Made by a program: the position numbers and the translations under genes
The notes under the pieces: model-generated
The model's input: only the letters and a program-made list of their open reading frames with translations
Database searches by the model: none
What the model was told of the DNA's origin: nothing
DNA from: a virus
Lineage: Duplodnaviria > Heunggongvirae > Uroviricota > Caudoviricetes
Virus record (IMG/VR): IMGVR_UViG_3300014510_000013
Reading direction: 5' to 3' (one strand)
Length of the DNA stretch: 4,243 nt
Shown here: piece after piece, positions 1 to 4,243 of the stretch
Layout of the letters: each line of letters starts with the position of its first letter
How positions within the stretch are numbered: position 1 is the stretch's first letter

Positions 1-349
1 GCGCCGCCTCAATTGCAGATAATCTTTGTCTTAATTCTGCGTTTTCTTCTTCCAGTGCTGTTATTCTGTCGTCTGACTCTCTGGCTACCTGAACAAGCAA
101 GCCAGTAACACCAGAATAATCTACTGTGTAATAACGTTCACCTTCTTCACCTTCCGATCCGCTCGCACCGTCCTGATATTTCATTGCGGAACCTACAACT
201 TCTGGGATTGCTTCCAGAGCTTCCTGTGCAATGACACCAGCATAGGGCATACCGTTTTCTTTAAGCGTGTATGTATAGCCGTTCATTTTACGGATGCGGT
301 CGGTTGCATTATCGATCACCTGAATGTTGTCTTTCAGATCCCGGTCGGA
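1..349 (-). other. Region encoding the intramolecular chaperone auto-processing domain (predicted cleavage before Ser227, codon 349..347; Lys232 codon 334..332)
   Basis: HSDRDLK motif with Ser/Lys spacing identical to the catalytic dyad of S74 chaperone domains; downstream conserved blocks as listed for the parent CDS. Confidence 0.65.
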
Positions 350-1027
350 ATGCTGGTTAAATGCGGTGGCATGACATGCACCATTAACGCTTAACATATA
401 GGTGTTATCGGTATTTTTCTGCGCATAGAACATATAAGCGCCACCATCAACACCGACTTCATAAACAACCGGACGGCTAGAGTTGCCCCACAATTTAGCA
501 GTAACACCAGCATAAGCGGTTCCCTGTGTGGTTAATGTCATGGTTGACCCGTGATTAGCATATTTGATCTGTAATGAGTCTGTATTATCAAACTTAATAA
601 GCGCGTTACTTCCCCGCACACCATACGACATGAGACAGTTCCCCATCTTAAGGTAACCATCACTGCCTGGAAAAATTAAAGTTCCTCCGTTAAGATCACT
701 AAAGTCCCAAAAGATACCTTTTGTCCCGTTATGTGTGACGATCCTCGTCATTGTATCTTTAGTACCATCAATATTTTTTCTGGTATATATGTCACTATAA
801 GCGTTTTCCGTTTCACCAGTCTTATTTGACAAATGCAGCTTACCGCTGAATATAGTTCCAGTTGTTGGCAATGTTTTTTGATCATAGATTACTTTGCAAT
901 AACCATTCCATGTTGTTTTATTGTCTACATAAGATTTTGTTGCGTAGCTTCCTTGATCGTTTTTTAATTTGCTAACGTCGGATTTTAGCGTTTTGATGTC
1001 ATCAGGAATTACTGTTTTTGTAACCAT
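1..1027 (-). CDS. Tail fibre / tailspike-like protein with C-terminal intramolecular chaperone (peptidase S74-like) domain; partial, C-terminus runs off the window start
   Basis: Minus-strand reading frame open from ATG at 1027..1025 to the window edge (342 codons, no stop); not in the ORF track because it is partial. GGAG at 1038..1035, 7 nt upstream of the ATG. My hand translation begins MVTKTVIPDDIKTLKSDVSKLKNDQGSYATKSYVDNKTTWNGY. Residues 227-342 (nt 349..2) read SDRDLKDNIQVIDNATDRIRKMNGYTYTLKENGMPYAGVIAQEALEAIPEVV...ERYYTVDYSGVTGLLVQVARESDDRITALEEENAELRQRLSAIEAA, which matches the conserved pattern of the endosialidase/T5 L-shaped-fibre chaperone domain (Ser then Lys at i+5, G-x-IAQE, DYS..L..L, terminal helix). 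Family assignment is from memory, not a search. Confidence 0.75.
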   Translation of the reverse strand, partial: MVTKTVIPDDIKTLKSDVSKLKNDQGSYATKSYVDNKTTWNGYCKVIYDQKTLPTTGTIFSGKLHLSNKTGETENAYSDIYTRKNIDGTKDTMTRIVTHNGTKGIFWDFSDLNGGTLIFPGSDGYLKMGNCLMSYGVRGSNALIKFDNTDSLQIKYANHGSTMTLTTQGTAYAGVTAKLWGNSSRPVVYEVGVDGGAYMFYAQKNTDNTYMLSVNGACHATAFNQHSDRDLKDNIQVIDNATDRIRKMNGYTYTLKENGMPYAGVIAQEALEAIPEVVGSAMKYQDGASGSEGEEGERYYTVDYSGVTGLLVQVARESDDRITALEEENAELRQRLSAIEAA

Positions 1028-1039
1028 TGTCTTACTCCA

Positions 1040-1309
1040 TTAAGCCCATGTCCTTACATGCTGATCTGTCGTAATGAAAGGCATTAAAGAAGATATGTTT
1101 TTACTGCTATCAACAATCCTCATGTTTACGAAAAAACCACCGCGATCAATGCCTGTACATCTTTCGTTTTCTGGCTCCTCGTAATCAATAATGCAGCCAA
1201 TAACATCAACAAGAACCCCATTTTCTTCTTCAAGACTGAACAGGCCACTGTCATATACAATTGCGTTAAACTGTTCTCTGTTATCGAATCGTAATGTTAT
1301 ATCCCGCAT
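1040..1309 (-). CDS. Hypothetical small acidic protein (89 aa), translationally coupled to stf; function unknown, possibly a fibre assembly or adaptor factor
   Basis: ORF from the track. ATG at 1309..1307 shares one nucleotide with the stf stop TAA (1311..1309), giving a TAATG overlap. AAGGAA lies 8 nt upstream inside the stf 3' end. Stop TAA at 1042..1040. About 16 Asp+Glu versus 8 Lys+Arg; no transmembrane-length hydrophobic segment. I recognise no similarity to lambda Tfa / T4 gp38. Confidence 0.6.
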   Translation of the reverse strand: MRDITLRFDNREQFNAIVYDSGLFSLEEENGVLVDVIGCIIDYEEPENERCTGIDRGGFFVNMRIVDSSKNISSLMPFITTDQHVRTWA

Positions 1310-3672
1310 TATACGTATTCCTTAAGCTGCGTATCTGACAATGCTCTGTTCCAGAAACGGAGGTTTTTTATATGACCATTAAGGTGTCGTAATCCTGTCG
1401 TCGTTTGCCCCCCGATTCGAATCACGGCTGCTTCACGAATATATTTCCATACTGTTTTGGTTTCAGTGCTTATATGCTTATTTGCAAATGAGCATGTCAT
1501 GCCGTCAGCCTTAACCCTGAATCCCATAACGAGATCTCTTACTCCGCATGACTCATATACACGCCGGTTAGCCCCGCCTATATCGCAATACGAATAACCA
1601 TCCTGACTGATAGTTCCAGAAGAACCAAACCCCATAATAAATAGGCCTCCGGACTGGTGATTTTCTGAATCAATGACACGCGGTGCAGCATTATGAGAAA
1701 TAAACCAGTTTTTATGGACTTCCACCATGAACGTAAAAGGCATGGTATACATATTTTTCATCAGCGGAAACTTACATAAATCTGATGCACGAGTCGCTGG
1801 CTCTGTTGTCGTTATGATAAAGGAAGTTGCACAAGCACCATACTCAAATTGCGGGGTGGTTACTTCTATCCAGTCACCTGTTGCAAAAGACCCCACAGCT
1901 CTGTCGGCTGCAATTTGCAACTGCGTACCAACCATTCCCCATTCTGGCAGACATTTCAGGGTTGCCTGAAAATATATCCATCCACTACCTGGATCGATTT
2001 CAAAGTTTGCTGTTAATAGCTGGGCATTATCACCCGTAATTTGTAGTTCATGGGTCTGTAATGACAAATAGGCGTCACAAAGGAAAGTGTATCCTTCCGA
2101 GTTATACCGTTCAAAACGGATACGTGCGCGAACATTGAGATCACTTCTTACCCTGAACGACGCGGTAACATACGGACCTTTACTGTACTGATCATCGCCA
2201 GTCACATCTATGCCTCTATTACCAGCAACTGTGCATATATTTCTCCCTGTTGTCGTTCCTGCTATGTCGCTTCCTACTGTGAAACGTCCATATTTAAACT
2301 CAAATTCATCTGTTGATGATGTTACAGATATACCACCGCTTTTATTCCACGCATCAGGATTAAAACTATTTACGAACATGTTTGTTCGCTGATTCTCTAT
2401 CAGCAAACCATATTTTTCAAAACGAGGAACGTTATTCCCTGCCACGGTAATATGCCCGGACTTATCAATATACGTTGCAGATGAAGCCCGGCTAAATTGG
2501 CATATGCCATTAACTGGCACAGTAATTTCATCGCTGCCGATGGTTATTGTTTTATACCCCGGCGCATACCCTGTTATCGCTTCCAGAGAATCATTCAAGG
2601 GTAGCCAGATATCAGGAAGCGGAGGGACAGAAGCAGGATCAGCGGCATCTTCTGCAATCCTGGCTGCATTCTCTGCTCTTGTTGCGGCTGACGTTGCTTC
2701 TGTCTCGCTGGCTGCTGCTTTTGTTTCGCTCGCCTTTGCGTTAGTTTCACTGGTTTTTGCAGCTTTTTGGCTATTAGCTGCCGCTGTTGCAGAACCGGCT
2801 GCAGCACTCTCGCTTTCGGCTGCTGCATCCTGACTGCTTTTCGCCGCAGTTTCGCTGGCTTTGGCATTCGTTTCGCTGGTCTTTGCTGCCGTCTGGCTGG
2901 ACTTTGCGTTAGTTTCACTCGTCTTTNNNNNNNNNNNNNNNNNNNNNNNNNNNNNNNNNNNNNNNNNNNNNNNNNNNNNNNNNNNNNNNNNNNNNNNNNN
3001 NNNNNNNNNNNNNNNNNNNNNNNNNNNNNNNNNNTTTTTTGCCGCAGTTTCACTGGCTTTGGCATTCGTTTCGCTGGTCTTCGCTGCCGTCTGGCTGGAC
3101 TTTGCGTTGGTTTCGCTCGTCTTTGCGGCTGTCTCGCTGTTTTTTGCGTTGGTTTCTGATTTTTTGGCTGCTGTCGCGGAGTTTGCCGATGCAGTCTGCG
3201 AGGTCGCTGCCGCCTGTGCGCTGTTAGCTGCATTCGTTTCTGAGGTTTTCGCCGCGTTCTTCGATGATGCCGCTGCAGTTTCGGATTTCTTTGCCGCCGC
3301 TGCGCTCTGAGAGGCGGCTTCAGCGTTGCGTGCCGCTTCTTCCACCATTTCCTCAAAACGACGCAATGCCTCCGGCATGACATCATCTTCCGTCATGGCG
3401 CCGAGAAAATCATTCAGCGTACCTGGTCTGGAACCTTCATAGACGGTAATGGTCCCGGCATGTGAAGGCGGAAAACCTTCAACCAGCAGGATGACGCTGT
3501 ACTGGCCATACTCAACATCCAGGCTGTACCGTCCGTCTTCATCCGGATTTTCAGAGGCCACCGTGTTCACCAGTACCGTGGTGCTGTTACGCTTTGCCTT
3601 CAGTTGAATAGTGCAGTTCTGTATTGGTTTTCCCGCACCATCTTTCAGCACACCTGAAATCTGTACTGCCAT
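1309..3672 (-). CDS. stf: Side tail fibre protein: lambda Stf-like N-terminal domain, Ala/Ser/Thr-rich heptad-repeat shaft, divergent distal domain
   Basis: Long minus-strand ORF; the track starts at GTG 3678, but the in-frame ATG at 3672..3670 has GGAG at 3681..3678 and gives MAVQISGVLKDGAGKPIQNCTIQLKAKRNSTTV, which I recall as the conserved N-terminus of lambda-family Stf proteins (not searched). Central K-x-S-E-T-[N/A]-A heptads. C-terminus ends GHIKNLRFWNRALSDTQLKEYV, stop TAA 1311..1309. The ORF stays in frame across the 108-N run. Confidence 0.88.
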   Translation of the reverse strand: MAVQISGVLKDGAGKPIQNCTIQLKAKRNSTTVLVNTVASENPDEDGRYSLDVEYGQYSVILLVEGFPPSHAGTITVYEGSRPGTLNDFLGAMTEDDVMPEALRRFEEMVEEAARNAEAASQSAAAAKKSETAAASSKNAAKTSETNAANSAQAAATSQTASANSATAAKKSETNAKNSETAAKTSETNAKSSQTAAKTSETNAKASETAAKXXXXXXXXXXXXXXXXXXXXXXXXXXXXXXXXXXXXXKTSETNAKSSQTAAKTSETNAKASETAAKSSQDAAAESESAAAGSATAAANSQKAAKTSETNAKASETKAAASETEATSAATRAENAARIAEDAADPASVPPLPDIWLPLNDSLEAITGYAPGYKTITIGSDEITVPVNGICQFSRASSATYIDKSGHITVAGNNVPRFEKYGLLIENQRTNMFVNSFNPDAWNKSGGISVTSSTDEFEFKYGRFTVGSDIAGTTTGRNICTVAGNRGIDVTGDDQYSKGPYVTASFRVRSDLNVRARIRFERYNSEGYTFLCDAYLSLQTHELQITGDNAQLLTANFEIDPGSGWIYFQATLKCLPEWGMVGTQLQIAADRAVGSFATGDWIEVTTPQFEYGACATSFIITTTEPATRASDLCKFPLMKNMYTMPFTFMVEVHKNWFISHNAAPRVIDSENHQSGGLFIMGFGSSGTISQDGYSYCDIGGANRRVYESCGVRDLVMGFRVKADGMTCSFANKHISTETKTVWKYIREAAVIRIGGQTTTGLRHLNGHIKNLRFWNRALSDTQLKEYV
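2632..3330 (-). repeat. Tandem 21-nt (heptad-coding) repeat array inside stf, with higher-order units of about 198 nt
   Basis: Protein reads KKSETNA KNSETAA KTSETNA KSSQTAA KTSETNA KASETAA on both sides of the gap. On the + strand 2843..2926 and 3041..3124 are 84-nt copies with 4 mismatches, offset 198 nt. Confidence 0.8.
2927..3034. other. Run of 108 N (masked or unresolved sequence) inside the stf repeat array
   Basis: Directly visible; the length is a multiple of 3, so the stf frame continues across it. Confidence 0.99.
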
Positions 3673-3683
3673 ACTCACTCCAC

Positions 3684-3711
3684 AAATAAAAAAGGCGCCA
3701 TTGCTGGCGCC
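3684..3711 (-). terminator. Rho-independent terminator-like hairpin plus U-tract between the upstream tail gene and stf
   Basis: The minus strand reads GGCGCCA-GCAA-TGGCGCC (perfect 7-bp GC-rich stem, 4-nt loop; + coords 3711..3694) followed immediately by TTTTTTATTT (3693..3684). It lies between the upstream ORF stop (TGA 3735..3733) and the stf RBS. Confidence 0.6.
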
Positions 3712-3732
3712 CGTATTGGGGTTATAAATATT

Positions 3733-4243
3733 TCAACGGATACTGATACCGGAAGCAGCTTTTTTGGTCACAATCACCGTACAGTCTGTGATGTTTCCTG
3801 CGCCCTGATTGCCTTTCTGGAAAATCTTAAACTCCAGAGTGACGTTACCACCACCACTCGGCATATCAATAACCGCACTGTAACTACCGGGAATGGCTCC
3901 TTTAGTTTCTCTGGATGCGATTAATACGCCATTTTTGCGAACTTCAAAACCATAACCCGTGTATCGCGTACCTCCCGGGTTATTACCGCTCCCCGGATCG
4001 TCATACGCCACACCGTTAAAAATAATGGGCGGAATAATGATTTGGCGGTCAAAGTTATGATCATCGTAAATGGTGACTGTAACCGTCCCGTTTGGTGTTT
4101 CCGTGTTACCCCACGTACCAGCCTTTTTCGGGAATGATTTGGATACAGTTTTAACGAAGTCACCTCTGACCTGGTTCGCCTCCAGCATGCCCTTAATCGT
4201 ACAGTTTTCATTTACCGTGACATTATTGAGCGTCCCGGAGTTC
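3733..4243 (-). CDS. C-terminal fragment of a phage tail structural protein (possibly central tail fibre / host-specificity J-like); 5' end lies outside the window
   Basis: The track ORF starts at Met 4188, but the frame stays open upstream to the window end (my translation of 4243..4189: NSGTLNNVTVNENCTIKG, no stop), so it is the end of a longer protein. Gly/Thr/Val-rich, beta-strand-like composition; stop TGA 3735..3733. Immediately upstream of stf, where lambdoid phages carry J (and sometimes lom). This is not Lom-like by my recollection of the Lom sequence. Identity is tentative. Confidence 0.55.
   Translation of the reverse strand, partial: NSGTLNNVTVNENCTIKGMLEANQVRGDFVKTVSKSFPKKAGTWGNTETPNGTVTVTIYDDHNFDRQIIIPPIIFNGVAYDDPGSGNNPGGTRYTGYGFEVRKNGVLIASRETKGAIPGSYSAVIDMPSGGGNVTLEFKIFQKGNQGAGNITDCTVIVTKKAASGISIR

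What the first reader, a model, noticed from the sequence alone, without database searches (positions are those of the whole stretch)
1040..1309. Unrecognised acidic 89-aa protein in the tail-fibre assembly slot, coupled by a TAATG overlap
The ATG shares a base with the stf stop and a Shine-Dalgarno (AAGGAA) is embedded in the stf 3' end, implying stoichiometric co-expression with the fibre. Net charge is about -8, with no obvious secretion or membrane features. Candidate roles are a minimal fibre chaperone, an adaptor between Stf and the downstream protein, or a small moron gene. I cannot assign it to a known family from sequence alone.
Basis: partly seen in the sequence, partly recalled or inferred. 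Interest (0 to 1): 0.5.

Follow-up and report, generated by a model that had tools for sequence, protein, structure and literature searches.

The report
Small partner protein of a tail-fibre tip
The 89-residue acidic protein is a real, conserved phage gene that always sits directly behind one particular sugar-binding-type tail-fibre tip domain, and it is most likely that tip's dedicated helper or cap protein, which matters to anyone swapping fibre tips to change phage host range.

Summary
An 89-aa ORF lies at 1309..1040 on the minus strand. Its ATG overlaps the stf stop (TAATG), AAGGAA sits 8 nt upstream, and net charge is -8.

The ORF belongs to PHROG 1361 (unknown function). It has no Pfam, PDB or fold-library relative.

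It is not a moron. In 82 of 82 interpretable loci chosen only for the stf distal domain, this gene follows immediately. That ~445-aa domain resembles the RcGTA head-spike fibre plus a LamG-like part. The loci come from lambdoid prophages, Drexlerviridae and Dhillonvirus. Loci chosen in other ways show the same adjacency in T5-like phages, Seuratvirus and Vequintavirus, and in distant metagenomic relatives.

The gene is kept, under purifying selection, where the downstream second fibre is absent (phage ev243, Vequintavirus, a 53-kb prophage type).

In one Burkholderiales-like lineage the same domain forms the N-terminus of a protein whose C-terminus is DUF4376. DUF4376 is the conserved domain of experimentally shown tail-fibre chaperones or "caps".

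Best reading: a stand-alone, fibre-binding chaperone or cap module for this tip domain. It may also help dock the second fibre, whose N-terminal peptide occurs only in these cassettes. Binding itself was not tested.

The parts
1040..1309 (-). Gene for the 89-aa acidic protein (stop codon at 1040-1042). Member of phrog_1361.
   Evidence: ORF list. PHROG match E 9.6e-31 over the full length. AlphaFold2 model with pLDDT 76.6: a small alpha/beta fold with a disordered acidic loop at about residues 40-57.
1307..1311 (-). TAATG overlap between the stf stop (1311..1309) and the start of the small gene (1309..1307).
   Evidence: Sequence. Of the 111 related loci tabulated, 85 start 1 nt and 13 start 4 nt inside the fibre gene. 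The other 13 have the family's ATG 10 nt after the fibre stop (4 of the 111 start the base after it).
1318..1323 (-). Shine-Dalgarno-like AAGGAA, 8 nt upstream of the ATG and inside the stf 3' end.
   Evidence: Sequence. Relatives carry GGAG, GGGGGAG or AAGGAG at the same place.
1312..2649 (-). Distal ~445-aa domain of Stf ('StfC'). It combines an RcGTA head-spike-fibre-like part with a LamG-like part and is the proposed binding partner of the small protein.
   Evidence: NCBIfam GTA_spike_fiber E 4e-13. PDB 6TB9 head spike fibre Rcc01080 E 1.3e-14. Pfam Laminin_G_3 E 5e-4, below its cut-off. phrog_1419 E 3e-184. Conserved at 34-52% identity in five to six phage groups.
1309..3672 (-). Side tail fibre gene stf. 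It has a lambda-type N-terminus and a KTSETNAK repeat shaft containing a run of N at 2928-3034, followed by StfC. The likely start is the ATG at 3672; the ORF finder takes the GTG at 3678.
   Evidence: Relatives are annotated 'prophage tail fiber N-terminal domain-containing protein'.
1..1027 (-). Second fibre gene, which runs off the window. It starts 12 nt after the small gene's stop and carries a C-terminal Peptidase_S74 intramolecular chaperone.
   Evidence: Translation. Pfam PF13884 E 6e-14. phrog_4563 E 9e-207.
983..1027 (-). Conserved N-terminal peptide of the second fibre (MVTKTVIPDDIKTLK). It is the proposed docking element.
   Evidence: Invariant M, T, T, I, P, D, I, L, K across otherwise unrelated fibre bodies. 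Tblastn matches covering 80% or more of the 69-aa query, which is what includes its first 26 residues, come from 61 records. Every such record among the 60 rows shown is a T5-like or Seuratvirus record of the cassette-carrying kind.

Best explanation
The 89-aa protein is the dedicated partner of the distal domain of this side tail fibre, the domain built from an RcGTA-head-spike-fibre-like part and a LamG-like part.

It corresponds to the fibre-binding N-terminal domain of two-domain tail-fibre assembly chaperones, here encoded on its own without the conserved C-terminal DUF4376 domain.

Proposed mechanism (inferred, not shown):
- It is translated by coupling straight after each Stf chain.
- It binds the conserved frame of the tip domain as that domain emerges.
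- It keeps the tip soluble, or caps it, during fibre assembly.
- It either leaves or stays weakly bound, as described for DUF4376 chaperones and for TfaMu.

What is shown:
- The gene is real and under purifying selection.
- It is strictly adjacent to this fibre domain in many phage lineages.
- It is retained without the second fibre.
- Its domain is homologous to the N-terminus of DUF4376 proteins that sit behind a related fibre gene.
For: 1. Strict co-occurrence. 84 loci were fetched only by the fibre domain. Of these, 82 carry the small gene immediately after it. The two exceptions are a contig that ends 24 nt after the fibre stop (L066) and an IS3-family insertion inside the small gene (L052).

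2. The same adjacency appears wherever the cassette was found:
- AKFV33 and IrisVonRoten (T5-like), VogelGryff (Seuratvirus), tunus (Drexlerviridae), KarlBarth (Dhillonvirus) and lambdoid phages.
- JeffSchatz (Vequintavirus myovirus), where the fibre domain scores E 9e-140 and the start is again a TAATG overlap.
- Escherichia ruysiae and Escherichia sp. prophages.
- Five distant metagenomic contexts.

3. Independence from the second fibre. The whole genome of phage ev243 has no ORF with the docking motif yet keeps the small gene. The same holds for the L006-L018 prophage type, for L025/L026 and for Vequintavirus. pN/pS in those types is 0.08-0.40.

4. Domain fusion. In L122 and L123 a 314-337-aa protein related to the fibre domain (E 7e-24 and 4e-30) is followed by a ~204-aa protein. 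Residues 1-81 of that protein match the small-protein family profile (E 1e-7 to 2.5e-11 with Z set to 1e6). Residues 90-195 are Pfam DUF4376 (E 4.9e-24).

5. What DUF4376 proteins do. They are experimentally shown fibre chaperones or 'caps' encoded downstream of fibre genes: V22 gp27 (PMC7289586), A5 gp9 (PMC10579305) and the CJIE1 prophage protein (PMC7882524). PMC7882524, citing North et al. 2019, describes their variable N-terminal domain as the part that binds the fibre's C-terminus.

6. Only 3 of the 120 DUF4376 proteins retrieved carry this N-domain. This fits the picture of a fibre-specific, exchangeable N-domain.

7. The fibre domain and the small gene diverge as one block. Between two cassette types they are 40-65% identical at the nucleotide level, and identity jumps to about 90% at the start of the next gene.

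8. Lambdoid relatives carry truncated tfa remnants downstream. The canonical Tfa has therefore been displaced.
Against: - No direct evidence of binding or of chaperone activity.
- The window protein itself has no DUF4376 domain and no hit to Caudo_TAP or any other chaperone family.
- The fusion link rests on one lineage: three sequences at 69-100% identity.
- The RcGTA relative of the tip domain acts as a single subunit (PMC7296036). That paper does not mention a helper for it, so a folding chaperone may not be needed and 'cap' or 'adaptor' may describe the protein better.
- Whole-domain co-divergence with the fibre domain is weak (Mantel r 0.27, p 0.07). Only the first ~85 and last ~27 residues correlate, and genetic linkage could explain that.
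- The nearly invariant C-terminal R-x-W-A end has no explanation.
Confidence: 0.6

Rival explanations
1. Permanent structural adaptor. The small protein stays on the mature fibre tip and forms, or completes, the socket that holds the conserved N-terminal peptide of the second, exchangeable fibre. The result would be a branched fibre.
For: The second fibre starts 9-12 nt after the small gene in most cassettes. Its N-terminus (M-x-T-x-T-x-I-P-x-D-I-x-x-L-K) is conserved on bodies of 227-586 aa. Tblastn matches that include that N-terminus come from 61 records, and all of those among the 60 rows shown are of the cassette-carrying kind. Residues 2-5 of the peptide co-segregate with the type of small protein and fibre domain (VTKT with the 89-aa type, ATST with the 93-aa types). 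Translational coupling to stf would give comparable amounts of the two proteins. The BASEL authors place the IrisVonRoten distal fibre Gp24 on a long proximal fibre (PMC11990801). Branched fibres are established for DT57C (PMC4728585).
Against: The small gene is intact and under purifying selection in ev243, Vequintavirus and other cassettes that have no second fibre. Distant relatives keep the family, including its R-V-W-A end, next to quite different downstream genes. DT57C-type branching works without any such protein. Co-segregation of the first few codons can be explained by linkage alone.
Confidence: 0.25
2. Distal adhesin. The small protein would sit at the fibre tip and itself contact the host receptor, as gp38 does in T2 and S16.
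For: It is encoded directly after the fibre gene, like gp38. TfaMu has also been suggested to touch the receptor (quoted in PMC10579305).
Against: Receptor-contacting parts are usually the variable ones. Here the variable segment is the middle of the fibre tip domain (mean identity 0.37-0.50). The small protein keeps invariant residues across sipho- and myoviruses with different hosts. It has no hit to gp38 or any other adhesin family. It is strongly acidic, which fits poorly with binding an anionic cell surface.
Confidence: 0.04
3. Dispensable moron, or a host-directed or anti-defence gene, unrelated to the fibre.
For: It is small and acidic, has no annotated function, and lies near the prophage end where morons accumulate.
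Against: It is never absent from interpretable cassettes. It is present in strictly virulent phages. There is no promoter or terminator of its own. It has no PADLOC hit. It is fused to a tail-fibre chaperone domain in one lineage.
Confidence: 0.03

Closest known systems
DUF4376-type tail-fibre chaperones or 'transient caps' (Alteromonas phages V22 gp27 and A5 gp9; the gene downstream of the Campylobacter CJIE1 H-fibre)
   Same: They are encoded immediately downstream of the fibre gene and have a fibre-specific N-terminal domain. A homologue of the window protein forms exactly that N-terminal domain in three DUF4376 proteins that sit behind a related fibre gene.
   Different: The window protein lacks the DUF4376 domain entirely and is half the size. 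The partner fibre tip is a lectin-like globular domain, not the tips studied in V22 or A5.
Tfa proteins of lambda, P2 (gpG) and Mu (gpU) (Pfam Caudo_TAP)
   Same: It occupies the same slot after stf, is coupled to the fibre gene, and is presumed to bind the fibre's C-terminus. In the lambdoid relatives the canonical tfa survives only as a truncated remnant downstream of the cassette.
   Different: No sequence match to Caudo_TAP at E up to 1. It is 89 aa against about 175-194 aa. No fold match was found.
Branched lateral tail fibres of T5-like phages DT57C and DT571/2 (LtfA and LtfB)
   Same: A proximal fibre carries a second, separately encoded fibre that ends in a Peptidase_S74 intramolecular chaperone. 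The AKFV33 and IrisVonRoten type of locus has the same overall logic.
   Different: No small ORF between ltfA and ltfB is mentioned in the two DT57C papers searched, and LtfA ends in its own S74 domain. Residues 27-69 of the second-fibre query match inside DT57C ltfA, but its first 26 residues do not.
RcGTA head spike fibre Rcc01080 (PDB 6TB9). This is the relative of the partner domain, not of the small protein.
   Same: Residues ~53-298 of the Stf distal domain are homologous to it (E 1.3e-14). Rcc01080 binds capsule polysaccharide (PMC7296036), which suggests the Stf tip is a glycan-binding head.
   Different: Rcc01080 is a head decoration present as a single subunit. Here the domain ends a tail fibre. 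No small partner gene has been described for RcGTA, and I could not check for one.

Membership tests
PHROG phrog_1361 (unknown function; sister family phrog_18574) | Full-length match to the family profile | tested here: met
   E 9.6e-31 over residues 1-89 against profile positions 1-92 of 92. The Vequintavirus and metagenomic relatives match phrog_1361, phrog_18574 or both.
Tfa / Caudo_TAP (lambda Tfa, P2 gpG, Mu gpU) | Sequence match to Pfam PF02413 | tested here: not met
   The Pfam scan at E up to 1 returned only a sub-threshold hit to an unrelated peptide family. NCBIfam returned nothing relevant.
Tfa / Caudo_TAP (lambda Tfa, P2 gpG, Mu gpU) | Gene immediately downstream of the fibre gene whose C-terminus it serves | tested here: met
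   TAATG overlap with stf. The same adjacency holds in all 111 related loci where the gene was found.
DUF4376-type tail-fibre chaperones | C-terminal DUF4376 domain (PF14301) | tested here: not met
   The window protein has no PF14301 hit. The family normally ends at R-x-W-A at about residue 89-93.
DUF4376-type tail-fibre chaperones | Fibre-specific N-terminal domain preceding DUF4376 | tested here: met
DUF4376-type tail-fibre chaperones | Binds the fibre tip, and is needed for or modulates fibre function | not testable with these tools
   This needs co-expression, pull-down or a multimer structure prediction.
gp38-type adhesins and gp57A-type general fibre chaperones (T4-like phages) | Sequence or fold similarity | tested here: not met
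Peptidase_S74 intramolecular chaperone | PF13884 domain | tested here: not met
   The domain is present in the downstream second fibre (E 6e-14). It is absent from the small protein and from the Stf distal domain.
Anti-phage defence or moron genes | Match to a PADLOC model; patchy presence among otherwise identical cassettes | tested here: not met
   No PADLOC hit. The gene is present in 82 of 82 interpretable cassettes.

The most novel reading that the evidence does not exclude
The small protein stays on the mature fibre. Together with the lectin-like tip domain it would form a universal socket into which exchangeable second fibres plug through a ~15-25-residue N-terminal peptide. This would be a plug-and-play branching hub shared by lambdoid, T1-like, T5-like, Dhillonvirus and Seuratvirus siphoviruses. 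It would have been derived by stripping a Tfa-type chaperone down to its fibre-binding domain.
Probability: 0.2. Interest if true: 0.65.

Novelty: new variant of a known kind. Interest (0 to 1): 0.45.

Why it matters
This fibre tip module is common. The first 1.7 kb of the window matches in 787 of 5426 complete E. coli genomes. The tip domain is found in about 220 phage records spanning five to six phage groups.

Host-range engineering by swapping Stf or LTF distal parts usually fails unless the cognate helper protein is moved as well. These results identify the 85-110-aa gene as the obligatory companion of this tip, and they show where the module boundaries lie.

The results also suggest that tail-fibre chaperones can be reduced to their fibre-binding domain alone. 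Finally, they give a concrete candidate for how a second fibre is attached in the AKFV33 and IrisVonRoten type of lateral fibre, a point on which the papers I searched say nothing.

Tried and rejected
1. Sequence searches. Pfam, NCBIfam, PADLOC and PDB-sequence searches with the single protein and with a 67-sequence profile gave no informative hit.

2. Fold searches on the AlphaFold2 model (pLDDT 76.6).
- Foldseek against the PDB: best E 0.085.
- Foldseek against viral models: only uncharacterised small phage proteins, E 2e-3 or worse.
- The afdb50 library was not available.

3. Fused-chain prediction. I submitted a paired alignment of the fibre domain, a linker and the small protein, to look for an interface.

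4. Hits to giant repeat proteins. The family profile hit PKD-like repeat proteins (P0085, P0087 and others). I judged these to be motif-level matches (Y-x-V-x-V-R-x-x-D-D-D-G-G) summed over repeats, not homology.

5. DT57C LtfA/LtfB as a direct model. Rejected, because neither paper mentions a small ORF there and LtfA has its own S74 domain.

6. Virion proteomics for a cassette-carrying phage. Literature searches found nothing usable. The rV5 proteomics paper (PMC3606486) did not help, because rV5 itself did not appear among the hits for the small protein.

7. First genome-contig scan with the small-protein profile: no confirmed locus.

8. Whole-domain mirror-tree test between the fibre domain and the small protein: weak (r 0.27, p 0.07).

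Full report
**Anatomy of the window**

All genes in the window read on the minus strand.

| Coordinates (minus strand) | Feature | Evidence |
|---|---|---|
| 4243..3733 | C-terminal receptor-binding domain of gpJ | Pfam Ig_GpJ_C, E 1e-26 |
| 3712..3693 | Terminator-like hairpin followed by a T run | |
| 3672 (or GTG 3678)..1309 | stf, the side tail fibre gene | |
| 1309..1040 | The 89-aa ORF of the finding | |
| 1027..1 | A second fibre gene that runs off the window; it ends in a Peptidase_S74 intramolecular chaperone | PF13884, E 6e-14 |

stf has three parts: a lambda-type N-terminus, a KTSETNAK repeat shaft interrupted by a run of N at 2928-3034, and a ~445-aa distal domain.

- The stf stop and the ATG of the small ORF share base 1309 (TAATG).
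- AAGGAA lies 8 nt upstream of the ATG.
- Net charge is -8.
- No promoter-like or terminator-like site separates the two genes on the coding strand.

**The gene is real and belongs to a family**

- The protein matches phrog_1361, a family of unknown function, over its whole length (E 9.6e-31).
- Pfam, NCBIfam, PADLOC and PDB-sequence searches give nothing.
- Homologues of 85-110 aa at 22-40% identity are found in phages and metagenomes.
- M1, D3, F8, D35, G38, R64 and W88 are invariant. The C-terminal R-x-W-A end is nearly invariant.
- pN/pS within sequence types is 0.08-0.44.
- An AlphaFold2 model built on 67 sequences (pLDDT 76.6, pTM 0.67) shows a small three-stranded alpha/beta fold with a disordered acidic loop.
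- No solved structure or viral model resembles it meaningfully.

**What it goes with**

The Stf distal domain (window 2649..1312) has two recognisable parts.

- The first half is homologous to the head spike fibre Rcc01080 of the Rhodobacter gene transfer agent (NCBIfam GTA_spike_fiber, E 4e-13; PDB 6TB9, E 1.3e-14). Rcc01080 is a capsule-polysaccharide-binding protein that acts as a single subunit (PMC7296036).
- The second half is LamG-like. The Pfam Laminin_G_3 hit is below its cut-off (E 5e-4).

The same domain, at 33-53% identity, ends the lateral or side tail fibres of several phage groups:

- T5-like phages (AKFV33, IrisVonRoten)
- Drexlerviridae (tunus)
- Dhillonvirus (KarlBarth)
- Seuratvirus (VogelGryff)
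- many lambdoid phages
- the 1479-aa lateral fibre of the Vequintavirus myovirus JeffSchatz

These add up to about 220 phage records.

In every one of these groups a member of the small-protein family starts within a few bases of the fibre's stop codon.

I fetched 84 loci using the fibre domain alone. Of these, 82 carry the small gene. The two exceptions are a contig that ends 24 nt after the fibre stop and a copy interrupted by an IS3-family element.

That test was run, and the ORF was not absent.

The pairing also holds in:

- two Escherichia ruysiae prophages and one Escherichia sp. prophage
- five distant metagenomic contexts, where fibre genes ending in the same LamG-type motif are followed by family members

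**Relation to the second fibre**

In most cassettes a further fibre gene starts 9-12 nt after the small gene.

- Its first ~15 residues are conserved (M-[VA]-T-x-T-[VN]-I-P-x-D-I-x-x-L-K).
- The rest varies from 227 to 586 aa.
- In a tblastn of phage records with a 69-aa second-fibre N-terminus, 61 records matched 80% or more of the query, which is what takes in its first 26 residues. All such records among the 60 rows shown are T5-like or Seuratvirus records of the cassette-carrying kind. Residues 27-69 are a widespread fibre motif.

So this peptide is a plausible docking element for the hub formed by the fibre tip domain and the small protein.

The small gene does not depend on the second fibre, however.

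- Phage ev243 keeps it, yet its whole genome has no ORF with the docking motif.
- A 53-kb prophage type (L006-L018) keeps it with nothing following.
- L025 and L026 keep it without a second fibre.
- Vequintavirus has no second fibre of this kind.
- The gene remains under purifying selection in these types.

Between two cassette types, the fibre domain plus the small gene form one diverged block (40-65% nucleotide identity). Identity then jumps to about 90% at the first codons of the second fibre.

Divergence of the small protein correlates with two parts of the fibre domain:

- the last ~27 residues (r 0.62, p 0.0005)
- the first ~85 residues (r 0.43-0.44, p 0.0035 or lower)

It does not correlate with the variable middle. 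This fits binding to a conserved frame of the domain. Linkage and shared phage backbone could produce the same pattern.

**The link to known chaperones**

A scan of bacterial genomes with the fibre domain found a Noviherbaspirillum metagenome-assembled contig (L122). It carries a 337-aa relative of the fibre domain followed by a 204-aa protein.

- Residues 90-195 of that protein are Pfam DUF4376 (E 4.9e-24).
- Residues 1-81 match a broadened profile of the small-protein family end to end (37.5 bits, E 1e-7 with Z set to one million).
- Two further variants at 69% and 77% identity match better (E 2.5e-11 and 1e-9).
- The other 117 DUF4376 proteins retrieved do not match at all.
- An independent contig (L123) shows the same gene pair inside a phage-like tail and lysis module.

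DUF4376 is the conserved C-terminal domain of tail-fibre chaperones that have been tested experimentally:

- V22 gp27 is required for functional fibres (PMC7289586).
- A5 gp9 binds the fibre tip and has been proposed to be a transient cap (PMC10579305).
- The gene downstream of the CJIE1 H-fibre is required for receptor-binding function. That paper states that DUF4376 is homologous to the C-terminus of TfaMu. Citing North et al. 2019, it also states that the variable N-terminal domain of such proteins binds the fibre's C-terminal region (PMC7882524).

The window protein therefore corresponds to the fibre-binding half of such a chaperone, encoded alone.

**Interpretation**

The best-supported reading (confidence 0.6) is a dedicated accessory protein of this lectin-like fibre tip. 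It would be a minimal chaperone or cap made in step with Stf by translational coupling.

Whether it leaves the mature fibre is unknown.

The main rival (0.25) is not exclusive of the first. In it the protein stays bound and helps hold the N-terminal peptide of the second fibre, which would make a branched fibre.

An adhesin role (0.04) fits the conservation pattern poorly. A moron role (0.03) is effectively excluded.

Nothing here demonstrates binding.

**Novelty**

- The gene family already exists in databases as 'hypothetical protein' (phrog_1361, VOG7707, FIG00639828).
- IrisVonRoten's copy is annotated 'tail fiber protein' without comment.
- None of the papers I could search discusses it.
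- Its kind, a fibre-specific helper encoded after the fibre gene, is well known.
- The variant is new in three respects: it has a single domain, it lacks DUF4376 and Caudo_TAP, and it serves a globular tip of the GTA-head-fibre and LamG type.

Interest is moderate. The result is useful for fibre engineering and for understanding branched lateral fibres, but it would not surprise a specialist.

Noticed in passing
window 2928-3034: A run of N lies inside stf, within its 21/42-nt repeat array that encodes KTSETNAK-type repeats. It is probably an assembly gap in the repeat region, so the true length of Stf here is unknown.
   Followed up: partly
window 3693-3712 (minus strand), between the gpJ stop (3733) and the stf start (3672): A strong terminator-like hairpin (8 pairs, 6 of them G-C) followed by a T run; none is expected by chance. 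This prophage has no lom gene between J and stf, unlike relative L001. Expression of stf and of the coupled small gene may therefore depend on read-through or antitermination.
   Followed up: partly
L005 6970-7263; L001 9756-10049; L031 5090-5383 (outside the window): A conserved 95-99-aa protein (M(KM)DITPFLHALCAVAAQ..., phrog_1443, unknown function, no Pfam or PADLOC hit) closes the cassette in lambdoid prophages. It is kept even where the second fibre is missing.
   Followed up: partly
L005 6283-6966; L029 5117-5854: Some 'second fibres' are only 227-245 aa. They consist of the docking N-terminus, a coiled coil and the Peptidase_S74 chaperone. The mature part would be about 110 residues with no obvious receptor-binding domain.
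   Followed up: no
L052 about 4880 onward: In one prophage the small gene is interrupted after about codon 17 by an IS3-family element. In hits H22-H25 a similar IS3 insertion falls within the match to window 1-1700, which spans the stf end, the small gene and the second fibre.
   Followed up: partly
L001 10069-10179; L114 (ev243) 23309-23614: Truncated remnants of a canonical tail fibre assembly gene (tfa) lie downstream of the cassette in lambdoid relatives. This suggests the cassette replaced the original stf distal end together with the 5' part of tfa.
   Followed up: no
L120 4137-4364: In an alphaproteobacterial metagenome contig, a 76-aa ORF overlaps the end of a gene related to the fibre domain. 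It has family-like termini (MIDTYLKSK ... GTPIIGVWA-stop), but the profile E-value is only 0.09. It may be a very distant family member next to a GTA-type fibre.
   Followed up: partly
P0085, P0087, P0100, P0102, P0131 (hits from the representative-protein library): The family profile gives multi-stretch hits to giant proteins made of PKD-like repeats (VEIDWGDG...YTVxVRVxDDDGG). I judged these to be motif matches summed over repeats rather than homology.
   Followed up: partly
L127 3724-4251 (P0156): One distant family member (175 aa) carries a different ~85-aa C-terminal extension after the R-T-W-A motif. The extension matches phrog_14311 and phrog_6034 (unknown function) and is not in Pfam. 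The gene sits behind a 422-aa fibre-domain relative and is followed, after one intervening gene, by a muramidase gene. This looks like a second, independent two-domain version of the family.
   Followed up: partly
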